Origin: a virus | Reading direction: 5' to 3' (one strand) | DNA: 64,000 bases | IMG/VR virus record: IMGVR_UViG_3300002052_000634 | Span: 36,618-100,617 of that record | In this document: positions 2,348-12,150 of the stretch, piece after piece | Layout of the letters: each line of letters begins with the position of its first letter | How positions within the stretch are numbered: position 1 is the stretch's first letter | Notes under the pieces: generated by a model | Seen by the model: only the letters and a program-made list of their open reading frames with translations | Told to the model about the DNA's origin: nothing | The model's database searches: none | Made by a program: the position numbers and the translations under genes

Positions 2348-3013
2348 TTATTTAGAGTTCTTCTTATGTTTATTTTGCTCGCCATGTTCTTGTTTCCTTT
2401 TCCATTTATAATATCTTTTCATAATTTCTTCGAAGCTTACAGGATAGAAATTCCAACAATCTACACCAACATTGATAGCATCGGTAAAACCAAAGGAGGT
2501 TTTTATCCGTTTAATTTGCCATGCTAAATGAACATGCCCTACTAGATTTATTTTATAGTTAGGGTCGACGTGAGCAGGATTGTGTACTATATTTATTCTT
2601 TTACCTCCATATCGAATTACTAATCTTTCGATAGGAGTTTTTACTCCATTATTTCCGTCATGATTTCCTTTACAAAACAAAATTTTTCCATTCAATTTCT
2701 TCTCTATTTCTGTAGGTTTAATCGGAAGTCCTTCTCCTTTTTTTCCACCTGGAGAATTCTTAAAAATGAAATCGCCAACAAAAATAACTAAATCTTCTGG
2801 TTTTACTCTTTCATTCCAACGTCTAATTAATTCTTTATTCATTTTATCTAGAGATTCGAAACTAATAGCGAATTTTCGTTGTTCTTCTTGGGATTTATTT
2901 TTATAAATTTCATATAACTCTTTATCTTCTTTAGTCATAAATTCAGTACGACCTACATATTTTAAAATATTAGCATGGTTAAAGTGAGTATCTGCTGAAA
3001 ACCAAAGTTTCAT
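2348..3013 (-). CDS. Calcineurin-like metallophosphoesterase
   Basis: ADTHFNH, VGDF, GNHD, HNP and GHVH motifs, plus NVGVD typical of phage phosphoesterases. Confidence 0.9.
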   Translation of the reverse strand: MKLWFSADTHFNHANILKYVGRTEFMTKEDKELYEIYKNKSQEEQRKFAISFESLDKMNKELIRRWNERVKPEDLVIFVGDFIFKNSPGGKKGEGLPIKPTEIEKKLNGKILFCKGNHDGNNGVKTPIERLVIRYGGKRINIVHNPAHVDPNYKINLVGHVHLAWQIKRIKTSFGFTDAINVGVDCWNFYPVSFEEIMKRYYKWKRKQEHGEQNKHKKNSK

Positions 3014-4005
3014 TTCTTTCCTTTCTCATCTGCTTCTTTCAAAGGACTATCTTGTTCTAAGTGATGTAAGACTAAATTTTTTACAATTTCTCTTCTGTCA
3101 TTAGACCACTTTAAATACAAAGCTAATCTGGTCACAAATTCTACTGCTAACAATTCATGCTTTATATAATTACTTCTATCTTCTCTATCAGTTCTCACGA
3201 AAGGTTTACCAATATCATGTAACAGTCCTGCCCATCTAAGATTTATTTCTTTAGGAGTATTAAGAACTACTCTCTTTGTATGTTCCCACAAAGTAAAGTT
3301 ATGATGAGGGCTGTTTTGTTCATAAGCTATTTGCAAAGATAATTCTGGAAGTATAAAATTCAATAATTTTGTTTTTGCCAAAAATTCTAATCCTACTTCT
3401 GGATGGTCTGCCAATAGTAATTTATCGAGTTCGGCTACCCATCTTTCCTTACTAATCTGTAATATTTTATAATTCATAGAATTTACAGCATGATAAATAG
3501 AAGGATGTATTTCAAATTCTAACTGAGAAGCGAATCTAGCTACTCTAAGCATCCTCAAGGGGTCTTCTTTGAATCTCTCATTTGGCTTTCCAACACATCT
3601 AATAATTTTATCTTGAATATCTTTTCTTCCACCAAAAGGGTCAATGTATCTATCTCCTGTTTTAGCAATAGCGTTAATGGTAAAATCTCTTCTGCTTAAA
3701 TCAGCAGTGATGTCTTTGACAAAAGTAACTTCAGGTTTTCTACTTCCAGATTTATATTTTTCATTTCTAAATGTAGTTATCTCAATTAGATTACCGTTTA
3801 TTTTTACTCCTAAAGTCCCGAATCTTTTTCCTGTCAAATAAGGTCTTCTACCTGCTTTTCTAATAGAAGCTTCAATTTCATCTGGAGTTAAAGGAGTAGT
3901 AAAATCAAAATCTTTAGGAACGTTCCCTAAAATTTTATCTCTAACTGCTCCTCCTACCATATAGAGAGGACTAACTATTTTTTTGACTTCTTCGTATATA
4001 GTCAT
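3010..4005 (-). CDS. cca: Class II CCA-adding tRNA nucleotidyltransferase with HD domain
   Basis: VGGAVRD, DFDF, RRDFTINA, EDPLRMLR, ER...E and LLHDIGK motifs. Confidence 0.9.
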   Translation of the reverse strand: MTIYEEVKKIVSPLYMVGGAVRDKILGNVPKDFDFTTPLTPDEIEASIRKAGRRPYLTGKRFGTLGVKINGNLIEITTFRNEKYKSGSRKPEVTFVKDITADLSRRDFTINAIAKTGDRYIDPFGGRKDIQDKIIRCVGKPNERFKEDPLRMLRVARFASQLEFEIHPSIYHAVNSMNYKILQISKERWVAELDKLLLADHPEVGLEFLAKTKLLNFILPELSLQIAYEQNSPHHNFTLWEHTKRVVLNTPKEINLRWAGLLHDIGKPFVRTDREDRSNYIKHELLAVEFVTRLALYLKWSNDRREIVKNLVLHHLEQDSPLKEADEKGKK

Positions 4006-4948
4006 ATAAAATCCCTATTGTAAATTTTTCGATTTCTTCAGTTCTCGGTTTAGCAGGTAGCGTACTCGATATTGTCAAAGATTCCATTTCTCTTTCTAGT
4101 TGCTCAGAAAATTCCAAGACTTGTTCTACAGTCCATTTGCCTTCTCTAATATCTAGAAGTAATTGTCTTTCTTTCAAAGGGAATTCTAATTTGCCAGTTT
4201 TCAATAATTCTATTCCTTCTAACATTAATCTTATTAAATGACTCGCAAATTTTACATCGAATCCATATCTATTTAACAACCCTCTCCTATTTCCTACTTT
4301 TGATATTCTTTCTTCTAAACTCTTTATAACTTTCTTAATTGGTAACGATGGAGAAAAATTTATATCTCCGATTGAAACAAACTTTACATTATTATATCCC
4401 GATTTTCTTAATTTAATAAAATGAGGACAAGTAGATAAAGTAATAACTTCTATTAGAAATTTATTTTTATCTATTTTCGAAAGATAATTAACTCCATTAA
4501 TCAAGTCAAAATAACAATCTTTCTTTATTATCATTTTGTGTTTTTGAGAAAAAGCATATCCTAAAAATTTTTGTTTTAATCCTTTATGTGGAAAAAGATG
4601 TTTAATATCTAATAATTTCTGTCCTAATTCATTTTTGAATACTATATTTTTTTCGTTTACAAATAATATCTCCAAAATATTAGGGTTATTTGAAAGAGCG
4701 AGTTGGATAAATTTTCTAAATTCGTAGAGTTTTCTATCTATAGCTTTATCAGTATTTTTTCCGTTTTCGTCTTTGGCTTTTATAGAAAGATTAACTTCTT
4801 CACATTTTTTAAATCCCAATATATATTCTATAGGAGATAAGAAAATCCCTATATAATCTTTGTCAGAATTTTCAGTGTTAGTTCCATACAAATGAGACCC
4901 TGATATTATTTCTAAAATTTTATTTTTATCGGCAATTAAAGGATTCAT
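3971..4948 (-). CDS. Pol-beta superfamily nucleotidyltransferase (RlaP/YcgL-like)
   Basis: SGSHLYGTNTENSDKD (GS...DxD), NPNILE, K..SHLIRL, LLDIR.G and LPAKP motifs. Confidence 0.85.
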   Translation of the reverse strand: MNPLIADKNKILEIISGSHLYGTNTENSDKDYIGIFLSPIEYILGFKKCEEVNLSIKAKDENGKNTDKAIDRKLYEFRKFIQLALSNNPNILEILFVNEKNIVFKNELGQKLLDIKHLFPHKGLKQKFLGYAFSQKHKMIIKKDCYFDLINGVNYLSKIDKNKFLIEVITLSTCPHFIKLRKSGYNNVKFVSIGDINFSPSLPIKKVIKSLEERISKVGNRRGLLNRYGFDVKFASHLIRLMLEGIELLKTGKLEFPLKERQLLLDIREGKWTVEQVLEFSEQLEREMESLTISSTLPAKPRTEEIEKFTIGILYDYIRRSQKNS

Positions 4949-5092
4949 TTATCCTTCCCCATCAACTCATCGAGTTCCTCATTATTAGTACATTCTTCAA
5001 ATACGTGAGGATAGCATTTTTGGATTCTTGCTAGTATAGTAAATGCAAGAACTAATTGCTTGAGAGTGTGTTCATATTTTTGTATTATTTTT

Positions 5093-5488
5093 TCAAATGA
5101 CATTTATCTTTTTAATCTTTCTCTTTAAATTTAAAAATAGATTAACCTCTTTAGAAGGTCTATCATAATAGTAATTATTAGACGTTGCCACCCAATAAGG
5201 ATTAATATAAAATATTTCTTTAATTTCTGCCCACGCAATCGCAGTTAAACACATAGGACAAGGTTCTCCAGAACAATATATTTTAGCTGTTGTTAAAAAT
5301 TCGGTTTTTTCTTTTTTACATACTTTTCTAATAACTTGAATTTCTGCATGGGCAGTTGGGTCATGTTTTAAGGTCACTTCATTAACTGCAAAATACTGTT
5401 TACCTTTATATTCTATACAAGCCGAAAAAGGATAGCCTTTTCTATTTCTATTTGCTAATCTAATTAATTGTTTAGCTATTTTTTGCAT
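5093..5488 (-). CDS. Zn-dependent nucleoside/guanine deaminase (CDA fold)
   Basis: PF, DPTAHAE and EPCPMC motifs. Start moved to MQKIAK. Confidence 0.85.
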   Translation of the reverse strand: MQKIAKQLIRLANRNRKGYPFSACIEYKGKQYFAVNEVTLKHDPTAHAEIQVIRKVCKKEKTEFLTTAKIYCSGEPCPMCLTAIAWAEIKEIFYINPYWVATSNNYYYDRPSKEVNLFLNLKRKIKKINVI

Positions 5489-6683
5489 TTTAATCCCATT
5501 CATACCAATGTTTGTCACGTTTTTCTAAACAGCACCTTATCGCTAATTCTACATCCCACTTATAATATCCACATTCTCCATTAGATAAGATTGGGCAAGT
5601 GTTTATTCCGAATTTTTCGTTAAATACTTTTTCGGAGATATTATAAATTTTAATAATTTTAGAAATTTCTTCTTTAGTATATCCTAATGAGTCTTTAGGT
5701 TCTGGTAAATTAAGTTTTTTCATTTTTATTCCTCTCTATATGCCAATATTTCATATTCGTCATATCGTACATACCAAACTTTATAAATTGTATATCTTTG
5801 AGAAGAAAGAGAATTTAATTCTTTTTCTAATGTTATAGCATGTAGTTTAATTTTATGTATCCATTTTTTCATAATATCTCCTTTTATATTCTCTTGCTTT
5901 TGAAGGCAATAAAGAACACATCAGATTTTCTTCCAACATTCTATCTCTAACAATTTGATATTTTTCTACTATACTTATAGCATAAAGGTCTGTATATCCA
6001 AATTGTATATTAAATTCTTTCAATAAAAAATTATAATAATCTACTAATTTATCTTTTTCACAATAATGACATTGTGCTAAAGTAGGTATATTATGCCATT
6101 TTTCAGGATTGCAATATTCTATTAATATCCTAGCCCAAGATTTTTTATACATTATTATAATCCTATTTTCAATCTTTGCATTGTTTCGTATATTTCTAAT
6201 TTTTCTTCATAGGTATAATTACAAATTCCAGAACTATCCAAATGTCCACAGCCTTCACAAAATCTCTCGCTAATATTTTCTTTTTCCCATTCGGGGCAAA
6301 AGTTTTCTAAAATTTCAAATTTCATTTCTCTTCCTCCAATGTAAATAATCCTTGATGACCACAAGGTAAACAACTTGCTCTAATTTTATCCTCATCTTTT
6401 TTAGTAACAACTTTCCAATAAGTTTTCTCTCCACAAATCATACATTTTTGAACTAAAATTCTAACTTTCATTATATTATGCCTTTCGTTCATTATATTAT
6501 TTATTGTCAGCTACTGTAATTTCTAAATGACTATGTAAAGGAACTAAATAACCATCAGAAGCCCATTTAATAATTTCACTTACTGGAGTATCAGGGTCAA
6601 ATATTTTAGTTTCTCTCCACATATCTCCTACAGTAGTGTTTCCAGCCGAGCAGTGTTTTATAGCTATGATTTTTGGAAAAGTA

Positions 6684-6909: not shown

Positions 6910-6972
6910 TGGTGAGGGACAGTCGAGCAGGAATCCCTACTCCTTGATTATTCCATTAGGAAACTGCCCCTC
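6910..6972 (-). ncRNA. 63-nt CCA-terminated mini tRNA-like RNA without an anticodon arm
   Basis: GAGGGGCAGT pairs over 10 bp with ACTGTCCCTC, followed by ACCA. Internal hairpins are TTCC-TAAT-GGAA and GAGTAGG-GATT-CCTGCTC. It is a GC-rich island in an intergenic gap. Confidence 0.6.
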
Positions 6973-7131
6973 TTATTTTTCTAATTTCGTTAATTCATCA
7001 TCAGTAATGGTACAACATACAACATTCTCATCTTCATTATAATAAACAGCATAACCTTGTCTAACTAGAGCAGTTATAAGTTGGTCTGTATAATTTTTGT
7101 CTAATATTTGGATTTTAAGTTCGTATTTCAT
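6973..7131 (-). CDS. 52-aa hypothetical protein (MKYELKIQILDK...)
   Basis: Manual translation. Its stop codon abuts the 5' G of the mini-tRNA. Confidence 0.55.
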   Translation of the reverse strand: MKYELKIQILDKNYTDQLITALVRQGYAVYYNEDENVVCCTITDDELTKLEK

Positions 7132-7720
7132 TTAGAATTTTCTTTCTGGTTTTTTTATTCAATATTTTTATAAATCTTTTTTTTAAAGGTTTTTTCTTTA
7201 ATTCTAATCTATTGCCATAAATTTCTTTCATTTTCCCAACTGCTTGTATTCCATGTTTATCATACAAGGTTCTCGGTGAAATTCTTTTACCATCAATAAA
7301 AAATAAAGGATGACCGTCCTTTCCAATAATTCCATCAAATATCCATCCACTTGCTTTATATACCATTCCATTATGACCAGCAAAAGGGTCTGAATATGTA
7401 ACAATCAAATCATAATTATATGATTTTTTGATTTTTTTTATTACTTCTGCTGTTAAACTACTCATACTCCATTTGTGGTTATCTTTACCGACCATTCTTG
7501 CTAATTCAATAACTTTTATATTTTTTTGACTGTATTTTTTTTCATAAATCCTCGACCTACAATTTGTAAATACCAAACAACCTTCTTCGTGTCCATAAGC
7601 AAATAAAATCCCTTTTACTTCTCCAAGATAATGCCATTTATTTAACATAGTATTTGCTATTTTTTTATCCAATTTGATAATTGGTGGAGTTTTCTGTAAT
7701 CCGCTTAATTTGTAATTCAT
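7115..7720 (-). CDS. mom: Mom-family (GNAT-fold) DNA adenine modification protein, copy 2
   Basis: WHYLG, IELARM, VTYSDP..GHNGMVYKASGW, DGKRISPR and K.RF motifs. Confidence 0.8.
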   Translation of the reverse strand: MNYKLSGLQKTPPIIKLDKKIANTMLNKWHYLGEVKGILFAYGHEEGCLVFTNCRSRIYEKKYSQKNIKVIELARMVGKDNHKWSMSSLTAEVIKKIKKSYNYDLIVTYSDPFAGHNGMVYKASGWIFDGIIGKDGHPLFFIDGKRISPRTLYDKHGIQAVGKMKEIYGNRLELKKKPLKKRFIKILNKKTRKKILNEIRT

Positions 7721-9956: not shown

Positions 9957-10576
9957 CTATTTATTTTTGTTTAGTAAATCAAAATTTATCTTATATCTTT
10001 GATTTTTTCCTTTTGGGTAAGGTAATACTTTATATCTTAAATTATGTCTAAATACTGTTTTGTCTGCCTTATTGCCAAGAAATAAGATATACCTGTGTTT
10101 TGGAAACCAGGCTACTCTTTCTGTAAAATCTCCTACATAATGTCTAGGATGTTTTCCTCCTTTTCCTTTTATATGAGTTCTTTTTTTTTCCCACATCCAG
10201 TATATATAAAATTTAATGCTTGATATATATATCCAAAATGATTCATTTTTGTGTCACTATAACTAACAATTATTTTCGTTTTTTCAATTTGTTTTAAACA
10301 TCTAGAAACAAAAAAAGAAAAGCTATTTTTAGGTAAGTTTTCTTTTATAACTAATCTATTAAGTTCTAATACGAATTTTTTAAAAGGTTCTCCGCAAATG
10401 CCTTTGCATACATTAGGACTTGCAAGTTGTCCAAAGGTACATACTCCTATCATTTCTTCTTTATCAAATAACCCAAAAGCTACTGATATAGAAGGTATCC
10501 TTTTAGCGTAATGAATATTTAATAACCATTTTTTAGTATCTTTATATTCTATTCTTCTAACTTCATATTGTATCAT
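9957..10576 (-). CDS. mom: Mom-family DNA adenine modification protein, copy 1, split by a frameshift at an A9 tract (10181-10189)
   Basis: The 10169..10576 part has HYA, FGLF, GVCTFG, ELNRL and SYSD..NHFGYIYQALNFIYTG. The -1 frame part 9957..10196 supplies the family-like C-terminus (HPRH, KHRYILFLG, LPYPK). Confidence 0.8.
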
Positions 10577-10590
10577 ATTTTGCCTTATTT

Positions 10591-10660
10591 TGGAGCGAAG
10601 AGGTCGATTTTACGCCATCTTAACTCTGGAAGAGTTATGTTTTAATTAAACTATCTTCGC
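10591..10660 (-). tRNA. Non-canonical tRNA-Gly(UCC), 70 nt, CCA encoded
   Basis: Acceptor GCGAAGA/TCTTCGC, then U73 and CCA. D-arm GTTT-AATTA-AAAC has no GG. Anticodon arm is TAACT-CTTCCAG-AGTTA. The T-arm is degenerate (GGCG-TAAAAT-CGACC, no TTC). Confidence 0.8.
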
Positions 10661-10666
10661 AATTCT

Positions 10667-10695
10667 ATTATATCATATATTACTGTTCGTGTCAA
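10667..10695 (-). promoter_or_regulatory. Consensus sigma70 promoter for the tRNA-Gly/mom unit
   Basis: TTGACA-17-TATAAT with TG. An A12 tract lies upstream (10708-10719, UP-like). The predicted +1 falls on tRNA G1. Confidence 0.85.
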
Positions 10696-10699
10696 GGGT

Positions 10700-12150
10700 A
10701 CGTATCCTTTTTTTTTTTTCTACTATGTCACATCTCCACTCCGTTCCGTTCCGTCATTTCACTAATCCTTACCCTTCCAGGGGGCTACTTTGTCAGAAAA
10801 ACTATACATCTTTTGTGACAACTATACCTTTACTTTCTGACCATAATACAAACTGCTAATGTTTACCCTACCTCAATGTTCACTAAATAGTGAACTATAA
10901 TAATCCAGTGAACCTTAATGTCTCATATATAATGGACATTTTGCGACAATGGACTTTTCTAAATAGGGTATTCTAACAGTTATATTACCCCATTTATGCT
11001 AAACGTTACCCCATTAATTACCTAACGAACTGCCGAATTCCGTACCTTGTTAGGTAAGCCCTCTTACGTAGATATAACTAAGTAACGTGGCGTATATACG
11101 TGTATATACAGGCTTATATAGGTTTATATAAGTTTATGTACGTTTCCGTATAATTTCGCTTTTAGCGTTTCGCTTAATGTGAAATGGGTATTTAAACGTA
11201 CCGCTAGGGGGCGAGTGTAGCTCTAGGAGCATTATTTAAGGCTTTTAAGGGTAGGGTGACGGTAGTAATTTTAGGAGCGTATGGAACGTAATTGTGTCAT
11301 TTTTTGAGGCGATATGAACCAATTTTAGGGCGTTACAGATGCGATTAGCCGAAGGAACGGAGCGAAGTGGAATCGGGGTATTTGTTATTGTTCGGAGCGA
11401 TAGCGGTCAGAAACGGTTCGTTATGGTTCGTTTTGGAACGTTATTGGCGTGAAATGGGGTGATAGTAGGGGTTTAAAGTATCAAAAAACTAGCTTTTGCT
11501 AATCTTAACCCCTATGGTCTTATATTTATAACTTATTGATATATAAAGACTTATATATATTTACTTTAGGCTATAATTTATTATTATAACCTTTATTACT
11601 TTAAATTCCCATAAAAATATATTTTATATAGATTTGCCTATGTTTGTATATGTTTACCTAGCTTTATATACATTTTAATTATTACCTATTTATTATTTTA
11701 ACTAATTGATACATAAAACTTTATAAAGATATTTAATAACTAACTATTATTTATATTAAAGTGACTTTTACATCTACATAACTAGCTATTTATTATACTA
11801 ATTACTTATTATAGATATTTAATAAATGGACATTTATTATCAGGCTTTTTTAAAGGATTAAATAAGTTAGAGGTATTATCTGACTATTTATTTACTTAAC
11901 ATGAGATAGAATTATTAAAAAAGTTTAAGAAGTAGGGGTTTTATAAAGATATTTAATAAGATAGGTTATTATCTAGCTTTTTATACTGTTAATAGCAGAT
12001 ATCCAAGGAATAAACTGACTTTTTATTTTTTTAATTGTAGGGATAATGTTAAGATAGACAATAGCTTAATTTATTATTTGCCTTTTCGCTTGACATAGTG
12101 TATACTTAATTTGTATTTGAAAAATAAAAACAAGGTAACAAAGGGGTAAA
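10700..12150. other. Divergent non-coding hub (candidate origin or terminus region)
   Basis: No ORF of 60 aa or more. Gene orientation switches here, C-rich changes to G-rich on the + strand near 11100, and there are palindromes and a 20-bp direct repeat (11720, 11940). Confidence 0.55.
12078..12106 (+). promoter_or_regulatory. First rightward early promoter
   Basis: TTGCCT-17-TATACT upstream of ORF 12156. Confidence 0.65.

What the first reader, a model, noticed from the sequence alone, without database searches (positions are those of the whole stretch)
10591..10695. Predicted transcription start coincides with tRNA G1: a leaderless tRNA that is also the mom 5' UTR
Seen: TATAAT is followed by six bases (AGAATT) and then G1 of the acceptor stem, the usual +1 position. 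Known: RNase P recognises the D/T-loop elbow, which this RNA lacks. Inference: the promoter is placed so that no 5' processing is needed. The cut that frees the CCA end would also set the 5' end of the mom mRNA, coupling donor supply to expression of a toxic enzyme. Mu mom is likewise controlled through its mRNA leader.
Basis: partly seen in the sequence, partly recalled or inferred. Interest (0 to 1): 0.7.

Follow-up and report, generated by a model that had tools for sequence, protein, structure and literature searches.

The report
Promoter starts exactly at Mom's tRNA
In this uncultured marine-sediment phage, a textbook bacterial promoter is placed so that transcription should begin on the first base of a deformed glycine tRNA lying 14 bases ahead of the Mom DNA-modifying gene, so the enzyme and its likely glycine carrier would come from one RNA; no RNA data exist to confirm this.

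Summary
Observation confirmed. On the minus strand, TTGACA, 17 nt, TGaTATAAT and AGAATT are followed by G1 (10660) of a 70-nt tRNA. The tRNA ends in UCCA at 10591, 14 nt before the Mom ATG. The tRNA is real: Rfam tRNA model 38.4 bits (cut-off 29), and it is the only tRNA hit in the 100.6-kb genome. It has anticodon UCC and the full bacterial GlyRS identity set.

It belongs to a large tRNA-Gly family that touches Mom genes. Of 116 viral loci found by its T-arm alone, 108 carry Mom on the same strand. This scan has noted the Mom/tRNA-Gly link many times on other DNA. The RNA embedded in mom was published in 2011, and Mom's use of Gly-tRNAGly in 2026.

What is particular here is the promoter. Relatives carry the tRNA in frame inside the mom ORF or just behind mom, so they must be 5'-processed. 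Here the tRNA is out of frame, mom has its own SD and ATG, and a consensus promoter puts +1 on G1. Ordinary phage tRNA-Gly genes leave 7-12 nt between TATAAT and G1, never 6 (0 of 51).

The leaderless start and co-transcript are well-founded predictions. The RNase P rationale is not supported. No RNA data exist.

The parts
10708..10719 (-). A12 tract at -48 to -59, a possible UP-element-like A tract
   Evidence: Sequence. Position worked out from G1 = 10660. Function inferred. Metagenome contigs break here.
10690..10695 (-). -35 hexamer TTGACA
   Evidence: 12/12 site. It is part of a conserved promoter module, cccTTGACAc...atatgaTATAATa, seen at least five times in the genome.
10667..10675 (-). 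Extended -10, TGaTATAAT
   Evidence: Perfect sites with TG: 7 observed against 0.01 expected.
10661..10666 (-). Six-base discriminator AGAATT between -10 and the predicted +1
   Evidence: In the intergenic promoters among the 22 promoter-like sites listed, I counted a purine at the 7th base after -10 in 13 of 15.
10594..10660 (-). Non-canonical tRNA-Gly(UCC), positions 1-73. It has a 7-bp acceptor stem, a 4-bp D stem with a 5-nt loop, a 5-bp anticodon stem with loop CUUCCAG (anticodon 10630-10628), and a 4-bp T stem with a bulged A and a 6-nt loop.
   Evidence: Rfam RF00005 scores 38.4 bits (cut-off 29) over model positions 1-71. It is the only hit in the genome, E 5.6e-8. Fold z-score is -3.3. 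It aligns with the Mom-linked family, which shows covariation.
10591..10593 (-). Encoded CCA end
   Evidence: CCA is encoded in most family members.
10577..10590 (-). 14-nt AU-rich spacer with the weak Shine-Dalgarno AAGG (10586-10583). Candidate site of the cut that separates the tRNA from the mom mRNA.
   Evidence: Left unpaired in the fold of the first 130 nt. The cut itself is inferred.
10169..10576 (-). Mom-family ORF, N-terminal 135 aa, ending after an A9 run
   Evidence: Pfam PF25680, 110 bits, E 1.5e-31, profile positions 2-132 of 202. Translation.
9957..10196 (-). Continuation of Mom in another frame (C-terminal KHRY...PYPK motifs)
   Evidence: Translation matches the C-terminal consensus of alignment A2. 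The genome search reports one stop inside the Mom match.

Best explanation
A strong sigma-70-type promoter (consensus -35, 17-nt spacer, extended consensus -10, A tract upstream) starts a transcription unit. Its first nucleotide is, or lies within two bases of, G1 of a degenerate, Mom-linked tRNA-Gly(UCC).

The primary transcript would be ppp-tRNA-CCA, then 14 nt, then mom. The tRNA therefore needs no 5' cleavage. One cut in the AU-rich spacer, with trimming back to CCA, would release the tRNA and leave a short-leader mom mRNA.

The tRNA keeps what bacterial GlyRS needs (G1:C72, C2:G71, G3:C70, U73, C35, C36) but not the elbow used in translation. Its likely role is private glycine carrier for the phage's Mom enzyme(s).

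Shown: the geometry, the identity of the tRNA, the family-wide Mom linkage, and the promoter class.

Inferred: the start site, co-transcription, the cut, charging, and use by Mom.

Compared with relatives, where the tRNA is embedded in frame in the mom ORF or trails it, this looks like a derived, uncoupled layout. Here both products could come from one transcript.
For: - Geometry.
- Promoter class is real: 11 perfect sites against 0.22 expected, and 7 with TG against 0.01. The sites sit just ahead of genes, and I counted a purine at the 7th base in 13 of 15 intergenic ones.
- In the allowed start window, only G1 (position 7, T at -1) and G3 (position 9, C at -1) are purines after a pyrimidine. 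No upstream start that would create a leader is favoured.
- tRNA identity.
- Family and Mom linkage: 108 of 116 T-arm hits have Mom on the same strand, abutting the tRNA. Among 108 canonical phage tRNA-Gly loci only 2 do.
- Covariation in the acceptor and D stems.
- Mom uses Gly-tRNAGly (PMC13219725).
- GlyRS determinants (PMC7826273).
- No terminator-like site is called, and only 14 nt lie, between CCA and the ATG. The fold keeps the cloverleaf and leaves the RBS open.
- A gap of 6 is unusual: 0 of 51 ordinary phage tRNA-Gly genes with TATAAT nearby have it.
- Leaderless ppp-tRNAs function in N. equitans (PMC10100707).
Against: - No transcript data exist. Only three marine-sediment DNA runs hold the sequence.
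- The host is unknown, so use of this promoter by its RNA polymerase is inferred from consensus and enrichment only.
- The arrangement is a single case. Family members show no -10 box 6-7 nt upstream, and the closest relative's DNA could not be fetched.
- This phage places promoters tightly against whatever follows, so a zero-length leader may simply be the end of a compact-design range.
- The mom copy behind the tRNA is split at an A9 run.
- Tolerance of a 5' triphosphate by Mom or GlyRS is untested. The Mom study favoured 5'-monophosphate transcripts.
Confidence: 0.6

Rival explanations
1. Compact design without special meaning. The phage drops a roughly 45-bp promoter cassette directly against each unit. 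Here it happens to abut the tRNA. A zero-length leader is tolerated but not selected, and RNase P plays no part in the story.
For: - Other copies of the same promoter module sit a few to about 35 nt from the next start codon.
- Ordinary phage tRNA-Gly genes also have very short leaders, with a gap of 7-12 nt.
- Family members that need 5' processing have similar odd loops.
Against: - A gap of exactly 6 was never seen among the 51 control genes.
- This tRNA has the most eroded T arm of the aligned family, with a 3-nt deletion. That fits relaxed need for RNase P recognition.
Confidence: 0.3
2. The tRNA-like 5' end is not released. It acts in cis on the mom mRNA as a 5' stabiliser, or as an operator that Mom or GlyRS binds to limit mom translation.
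For: - It lies 14 nt from the start codon.
- Mom recognises tRNA-Gly, probably at its acceptor end (PMC13219725).
- In relatives the RNA overlaps the mom start region.
Against: - Half of the family has the tRNA behind mom, where an operator role makes no sense.
- The GlyRS identity set and the encoded CCA are kept, which points to a free, chargeable 3' end.
Confidence: 0.12
3. A decaying cassette. The mom copy behind the tRNA is frameshifted and the tRNA has lost part of its T arm, so the unit is on its way out. The second, intact Mom (7115-7720) would do the work with host tRNA-Gly.
For: - Mom is split at A9.
- The same truncated product occurs on 4 contigs.
- The T arm has a 3-nt deletion.
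- ARAGORN in its normal mode does not call the tRNA.
Against: - All four stems are intact and all GlyRS determinants are kept.
- The promoter is perfect.
- The frame after the A9 run is still open and carries the conserved C-terminal motifs. This fits slippage or a recent change.
- The phage also carries a CCA-adding enzyme although it has no other tRNA.
Confidence: 0.12
4. Transcription starts elsewhere, from an upstream promoter in the 10700-12150 hub or a few bases upstream. The tRNA would have a normal leader removed by RNase P.
For: Weak promoter-like sites exist upstream on the same strand, at 9/12. The host and its polymerase are unknown.
Against: The 12/12 +TG site is far stronger than any upstream site. 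There is no favoured purine between the -10 and G1.
Confidence: 0.15

Closest known systems
Leaderless tRNA genes of Nanoarchaeum equitans (PMC10100707)
   Same: A promoter at a fixed distance makes transcription begin at tRNA position +1. No 5' processing is needed and the mature tRNA would carry a 5' triphosphate.
   Different: That case is an archaeal TATA/BRE promoter 26-27 nt upstream, applies to every tRNA of a cell that has lost RNase P, and was shown experimentally. Here there is one phage tRNA, a bacterial sigma-70 promoter, an unknown host that presumably has RNase P, and only a prediction.
tRNA-Gly-like 'pseudo-tRNA' embedded in the mom homologue of Dehalococcoides ssrA genomic islands (McMurdie 2011, PMC3146451), together with the Mom-linked tRNA-Gly family seen in viral contigs
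   Same: The same RNA family. It shares the T-arm signature, the G1-C2-G3 acceptor start, an NCC anticodon, U73 and CCA, and it lies on the same strand touching a Mom gene.
   Different: There the tRNA lies in frame inside the first part of the mom ORF. In my set the phase was the same in 40 of 40, with an ATG about 10 nt upstream or in the D loop. Here the frame is closed by stops, mom has its own SD and ATG 14 nt downstream, the T arm has a 3-nt deletion, and a promoter starts at G1.
Phage Mu Mom with host Gly-tRNAGly (Silva 2026, PMC13219725)
   Same: A Mom-family GNAT. The donor chemistry gives a reason for a tRNA-Gly next to the gene.
   Different: Mu uses host tRNA-Gly and carries none of its own. 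Its mom is controlled by Dam/OxyR, C and Com (my own knowledge), not by a tRNA leader. Activity of this Mom is untested and its gene is split.
Non-proteogenic tRNA-Gly(UCC) of staphylococci, which feed FmhB/FemA/FemB (PMC7826273)
   Same: A tRNA-Gly with a UCC anticodon and intact GlyRS determinants, but altered D and T loops, dedicated to a non-ribosomal glycyl transfer. The Mom-linked family often reads UGC in the T loop, as those tRNAs do.
   Different: A different lineage and a different acceptor (DNA rather than peptidoglycan precursor). This copy's T loop is UAAAAU. Nothing here measures EF-Tu binding.
tRNA-mRNA co-transcripts such as the E. coli thrU-tyrU-glyT-thrT-tufB operon (my own knowledge)
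   Same: tRNA and mRNA on one transcript, separated by endonucleolytic cuts.
   Different: Those tRNAs have leaders and are cut by RNase P, and their products are not enzyme and co-substrate of one reaction.

Membership tests
tRNA (Rfam RF00005) | Covariance-model score at or above the curated gathering score (29 bits) over the full model | tested here: met
   38.4 bits over model positions 1-71 at 10594-10660 on the minus strand. A 3-kb scan missed it because of speed filters.
tRNA (Rfam RF00005) | Canonical elbow residues: G18G19 in the D loop and a 7-nt T loop of UUCRANY type | tested here: not met
   The D loop is AAUUA. The T loop is the 6-nt UAAAAU on a 4-bp stem with a bulged A. ARAGORN in standard mode finds nothing.
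Bacterial tRNA-Gly (GlyRS substrate) | Identity set G1:C72, C2:G71, G3:C70, U73, C35, C36 | tested here: met
   All are present in the sequence. The determinants are as listed in PMC7826273. Charging itself was not tested.
Mom-linked tRNA-Gly family (McMurdie 2011 'pseudo-tRNA') | Signature T arm GAUGGCGG-U(G/U)CAA-NN-CCGACC with a bulged A, and an NCC anticodon | tested here: met
   It aligns with 36 family members. It shares GAUGGCG and CGACC but has a 3-nt deletion in the T arm.
Mom-linked tRNA-Gly family (McMurdie 2011 'pseudo-tRNA') | Same strand as a Mom-family gene and touching it | tested here: met
   14 nt lie between CCA and the Mom ATG. In the family, 108 of 116 do the same.
Mom-linked tRNA-Gly family (McMurdie 2011 'pseudo-tRNA') | tRNA lies in frame inside the mom ORF | tested here: not met
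   In the frame that relatives keep open, this copy has TAA at tRNA positions 24-26 and again further on. Mom starts at its own ATG in another frame (compared).
Leaderless tRNA genes (N. equitans type) | Promoter spaced so that +1 is tRNA position 1 | tested here: inconclusive
   The geometry fits exactly, but the start site is predicted, not mapped. No RNA run holds the sequence.
Leaderless tRNA genes (N. equitans type) | Mature tRNA carries a 5' triphosphate, and the cell lacks RNase P | not testable with these tools
   The host is unknown. Only metagenome DNA is available.
Sigma-70 extended -10 promoter | TTGACA, 16-18 nt, TGnTATAAT, above chance | tested here: met
   12/12 with TG. 7 such sites in the genome against 0.01 expected. 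Activity was not tested.
Mom family (Pfam PF25680) | Profile score above the curated cut-off | tested here: met
   110.1 bits against a 27.1-bit cut-off.
Mom family (Pfam PF25680) | One uninterrupted ORF of about 200 aa | tested here: not met
   The ORF stops after 135 aa at an A9 run. The rest is in another frame.
Staphylococcal non-proteogenic tRNA-Gly | UGC or UGU instead of UUC in the T loop, plus weak EF-Tu binding | tested here: inconclusive
   Many family members read GGUGCAA. This copy reads UAAAAU. EF-Tu binding cannot be tested here.

The most novel reading that the evidence does not exclude
A bacterial virus makes a tRNA that is born with its mature 5' end. A sigma-70 promoter fires on G1 of a non-translating tRNA-Gly that is also the leader of the mom mRNA. 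One primary transcript would then yield, after a single cut, both the glycine carrier (5'-triphosphorylated, independent of RNase P) and the message for the enzyme that consumes it. This layout would have evolved from an ancestral form in which the tRNA was buried in the mom reading frame and tRNA and message excluded each other.
Probability: 0.35. Interest if true: 0.62.

Novelty: new variant of a known kind. Interest (0 to 1): 0.45.

Why it matters
If the start site is as predicted, I know of no other reported leaderless tRNA outside the RNase P-free archaeon N. equitans (my own knowledge; the literature searches turned up none). It would also be an easy one to test, because the promoter is an E. 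coli-type consensus.

It also gives a natural contrast within the Mom/tRNA-Gly system. In most relatives the tRNA overlaps the mom reading frame, so one transcript can presumably be message or tRNA but not both. Here the two are separated and could both be made from each transcript. This makes the question of how donor and enzyme supply are balanced directly testable.

The wider Mom/private tRNA-Gly link is not new to this scan, and the embedded RNA was published in 2011. The added value is therefore limited to the expression architecture.

Tried and rejected
- **RNA evidence.** The look-up of sequencing runs listed no RNA holder, only three marine-sediment DNA runs. Laying their contigs showed near-identical copies, contig breaks at the A12 run, and no informative variants in the tRNA.
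- The DNA of the closest Mom relatives (P0004 to P0007) could not be read. Only P0006's protein shows that a tRNA 3' half is translated into its N-terminus.
- **Mom-based locus searches.** Searches of viral, metagenome and genome collections gave 239 loci. The nearest relative (L083, 73% identity) has a coding gene directly upstream and no tRNA. ARAGORN found 3 tRNAs in 1 Mb. A strict Gly-like scan found 5.
- **Exact acceptor-stem scan of viral contigs.** No homologue of this copy was found.
- **ARAGORN mitochondrial mode.** It calls the RNA Gly(tcc) but gives 17 hits per 100 kb, so I did not use it as evidence.
- **blastn of the region against phage records.** No match. tblastn with the DNA polymerase gave only 23-27% identity, so no host could be inferred.
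- **Test for a conserved -10 box 6-7 nt before G1 in the family.** None was found, so conservation cannot support the leaderless reading.
- **The 63-nt ACCA-ended RNA at 6910-6972.** The Rfam tRNA model does not match it.
- **5'-triphosphate tolerance.** I considered citing the Mom paper's in vitro transcripts as evidence. I rejected this because GMP was added to favour monophosphate ends.

Full report
**What is there.** The window is part of a 100,617-bp IMG/VR virus record with 28% G+C. It carries T4-type replication genes: family B polymerase, a UvsX-like recombinase and a clamp loader. The only sequencing runs that hold it are marine-sediment metagenomes.

On the minus strand the sequence reads as follows:
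- A12 at 10719-10708.
- TTGACA at 10695-10690, then 17 nt.
- TG at 10675-10674 and TATAAT at 10672-10667.
- AGAATT, then G at 10660.
- From 10660 to 10591, a 70-nt RNA with a 7-bp acceptor stem, D, anticodon and T arms, discriminator U and CCA.
- Fourteen nucleotides containing AAGG.
- The ATG at 10576 of a Mom-family ORF (PF25680, 110 bits).

**Is the tRNA real?** ARAGORN in normal mode finds no tRNA in the window or the genome, and a 3-kb Rfam scan found nothing. With laxer filters the Rfam tRNA model matches 10594-10660 at 38.4 bits, above the curated 29 bits. The match is end to end, with model position 1 on 10660. It is the only hit in the whole genome, E 5.6e-8.

The RNA has anticodon UCC and all bacterial GlyRS determinants: G1:C72, C2:G71, G3:C70, U73, C35 and C36 (listed in PMC7826273). 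It lacks G18G19 and has a 6-nt T loop on a 4-bp stem with a bulged A. The statement that it lacks the canonical elbow is correct.

**It belongs to a Mom-linked family.** Mom of phage Mu transfers glycine from Gly-tRNAGly to adenine N6 in DNA (PMC13219725).

Two pattern scans of viral contigs, built from this RNA's D arm and from its relatives' T arm, recovered a large family. The T-arm scan gave 116 loci with 63 distinct sequences. Of these, 108 have a Mom-family hit on the same strand touching the tRNA: 59 with the tRNA ahead of mom and 49 with it behind.

As a control, 108 loci of ordinary phage tRNA-Gly genes with canonical T loops contain Mom only twice.

The family alignment includes the window's copy, which differs by a 3-nt deletion in the T arm. 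Acceptor and D stems show many compensatory changes.

This association is not new:
- A tRNA-Gly-like 'pseudo-tRNA' embedded in the first 150 bp of a mom homologue was described in 2011 (PMC3146451).
- This scan has noted the Mom/tRNA-Gly link in many other genomes.
- Many family members read UGC in the T loop, as the staphylococcal non-proteogenic tRNA-Gly do.

**How relatives express it.** Where the tRNA precedes mom, the mom reading frame runs open through the whole tRNA. It has the same phase in 40 of 40 cases, although the offset of the first conserved Mom residue varies from -2 to +49 nt. An in-frame ATG lies about 10 nt before G1, sometimes overlapping the stop of the upstream gene as ATGA, or lies in the D loop.

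Where the tRNA follows mom, the mom stop codon usually lies 7-15 nt before G1. In some cases it lies inside the tRNA, or beyond it after reading through. In three of these the tail reads TTGA, TTAA or TCAA where CCA would stand.

The closest relative with a visible trace, P0006 (73% identical Mom), has an N-terminal extension that is the translation of a tRNA 3' half.

Across 74 distinct upstream sequences there is no excess of -10 boxes 6-7 nt before G1. These relatives are therefore internal to transcripts and must be 5'-processed, despite similar odd loops.

**What is special here.** In the window the frame that relatives keep open is closed by stop codons. Mom has its own weak SD and ATG 14 nt after CCA in another frame. 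The tRNA is the first thing behind a promoter.

That promoter belongs to a class that is clearly functional in this phage:
- 11 perfect 12/12 sites against 0.22 expected, and 7 with TG against 0.01.
- A shared module, cccTTGACAc...atatgaTATAATa, recurs at several sites.
- The sites sit just ahead of genes with strong SD sequences.
- I counted a purine at the 7th base after the -10 in 13 of 15 intergenic sites.

By established knowledge of sigma-70 start-site choice (my own knowledge), the start is usually the 7th base after the -10, with a range of 6th to 9th, preferring a purine after a pyrimidine. Here position 7 is G1 after T, position 9 is G3 after C, and positions 6 and 8 are pyrimidines. 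Any start from this promoter should therefore give no leader.

In the control set of ordinary phage tRNA-Gly genes with a perfect TATAAT nearby, the gap to G1 is 7-12 nt (peak 8-10) and never 6 in 51 distinct cases. These genes keep a leader of a few bases. A zero leader is thus unusual, though it sits at the edge of a generally tight range.

**Co-transcription and the 3' cut.** No terminator-like site was called between CCA and the ATG. The fold of the first 130 nt keeps the cloverleaf and leaves the mom RBS unpaired.

Family-wide same-strand contiguity makes a joint transcript the rule. A cut in the AU-rich spacer would free the tRNA 3' end, after trimming to CCA, and leave a short-leader mom mRNA. 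That step is inferred.

The phage encodes a CCA-adding enzyme in the same gene block although it has no other tRNA. This fits a need to maintain CCA ends.

**Caveats.**
- There are no RNA data.
- The host is unknown.
- The arrangement is a single case.
- The mom copy behind the tRNA is split at an A9 run, although its downstream frame still carries the conserved C-terminal motifs.
- Tolerance of a 5' triphosphate by GlyRS or Mom is untested. The Mom study favoured monophosphate transcripts. Leaderless ppp-tRNAs do work in N. equitans.

**Verdict.** A leaderless start and a tRNA-mom co-transcript are the best-supported predictions, at roughly 0.6. Selection for RNase P independence is possible but unsupported. 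This is a new variant, in expression architecture, of a known and repeatedly seen system, Mom with a private tRNA-Gly.

Noticed in passing
window 10169-10198 and 9957-10196 (-): Mom copy 1 stops after 135 aa at a GGG-A9 run. The next frame carries the conserved C-terminal motifs (KHRY..PYPK). The same truncated product is on record from 4 contigs. This could be slippage, a recent frameshift or decay.
   Followed up: partly
window 6910-6972 (-) and 7115-7720 (-): A second, intact Mom paralogue (201 aa, PF25680, 70 bits) is followed about 140 nt later by a very stable 63-nt RNA. That RNA has an 11-bp terminal stem and two hairpins, ends in ACCA, and has a fold z-score of -5.0. It starts right after the stop of a 52-aa ORF, so it has no promoter of its own. 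The Rfam tRNA model does not match it.
   Followed up: partly
window 2348-5518 (-): The same gene block encodes a CCA-adding enzyme (PolyA_pol head, RNA-binding and HD domains), an RlaP-type nucleotidyltransferase, a metallophosphoesterase and a dCMP-type deaminase. The genome has only the one tRNA-model hit.
   Followed up: partly
genome-wide, for example window 2233(-), 9946(-), 10695(-), 33002(+), 58329(+): A conserved roughly 45-bp promoter module (cccTTGACAc...atatgaTATAATa) recurs. There are 11 perfect -35/-10 sites against 0.22 expected. In a few cases (for example 44523) the SD-like purines lie inside the discriminator, which would give nearly leaderless mRNAs.
   Followed up: partly
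viral loci L349-L499 (for example L400, L407, L438, L382, L424): Where the tRNA precedes mom, the mom frame is open through the whole tRNA in the same phase in 40 of 40 cases, with an in-frame ATG just upstream or in the D loop. Frame 2 of the tRNA is stop-free in 51 of 56 distinct family members, including copies that lie behind mom.
   Followed up: yes
L392, L445, L395, L422 (tRNA behind mom): In these copies the tail reads TTGA, TTAA or TCAA where CCA would stand. In L392 and L445 the mom ORF runs through the whole tRNA and stops just beyond it. In L395 and L422 it stops inside the D arm. The CCA end would have to be added after cleavage.
   Followed up: partly
L387: One viral contig carries three Mom-family paralogues around a single tRNA of this family.
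   Followed up: no
L500-L607 (for example L507, L515, L528): A large family of ordinary phage tRNA-Gly genes (canonical T loop) each has a clear TTGACA-17-TATAAT promoter 7-12 nt before G1. This implies leaders of only about 1-5 nt. Mom is absent from nearly all of these loci.
   Followed up: partly
L594: Another 70-nt degenerate tRNA-Gly-like gene with an eroded T arm sits behind a consensus promoter with a gap of 12. The ORF that follows begins MKIAILNDTHCG, which looks like a metallophosphoesterase (not tested), not Mom.
   Followed up: no
P0006 (Logan contig, DNA not seen): The closest Mom relative with a visible tRNA trace (73% identity) has an N-terminal extension, MEKQQIFQFEDSGSNPTSSLQ. 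It reads like a translated tRNA from the D loop to CCA, so that relative keeps the in-frame layout this phage has lost.
   Followed up: partly
window 10700-10720: Metagenome contigs from two runs break at the A12/T12 run next to the promoter, and one contig shows a 2-base length difference there.
   Followed up: no
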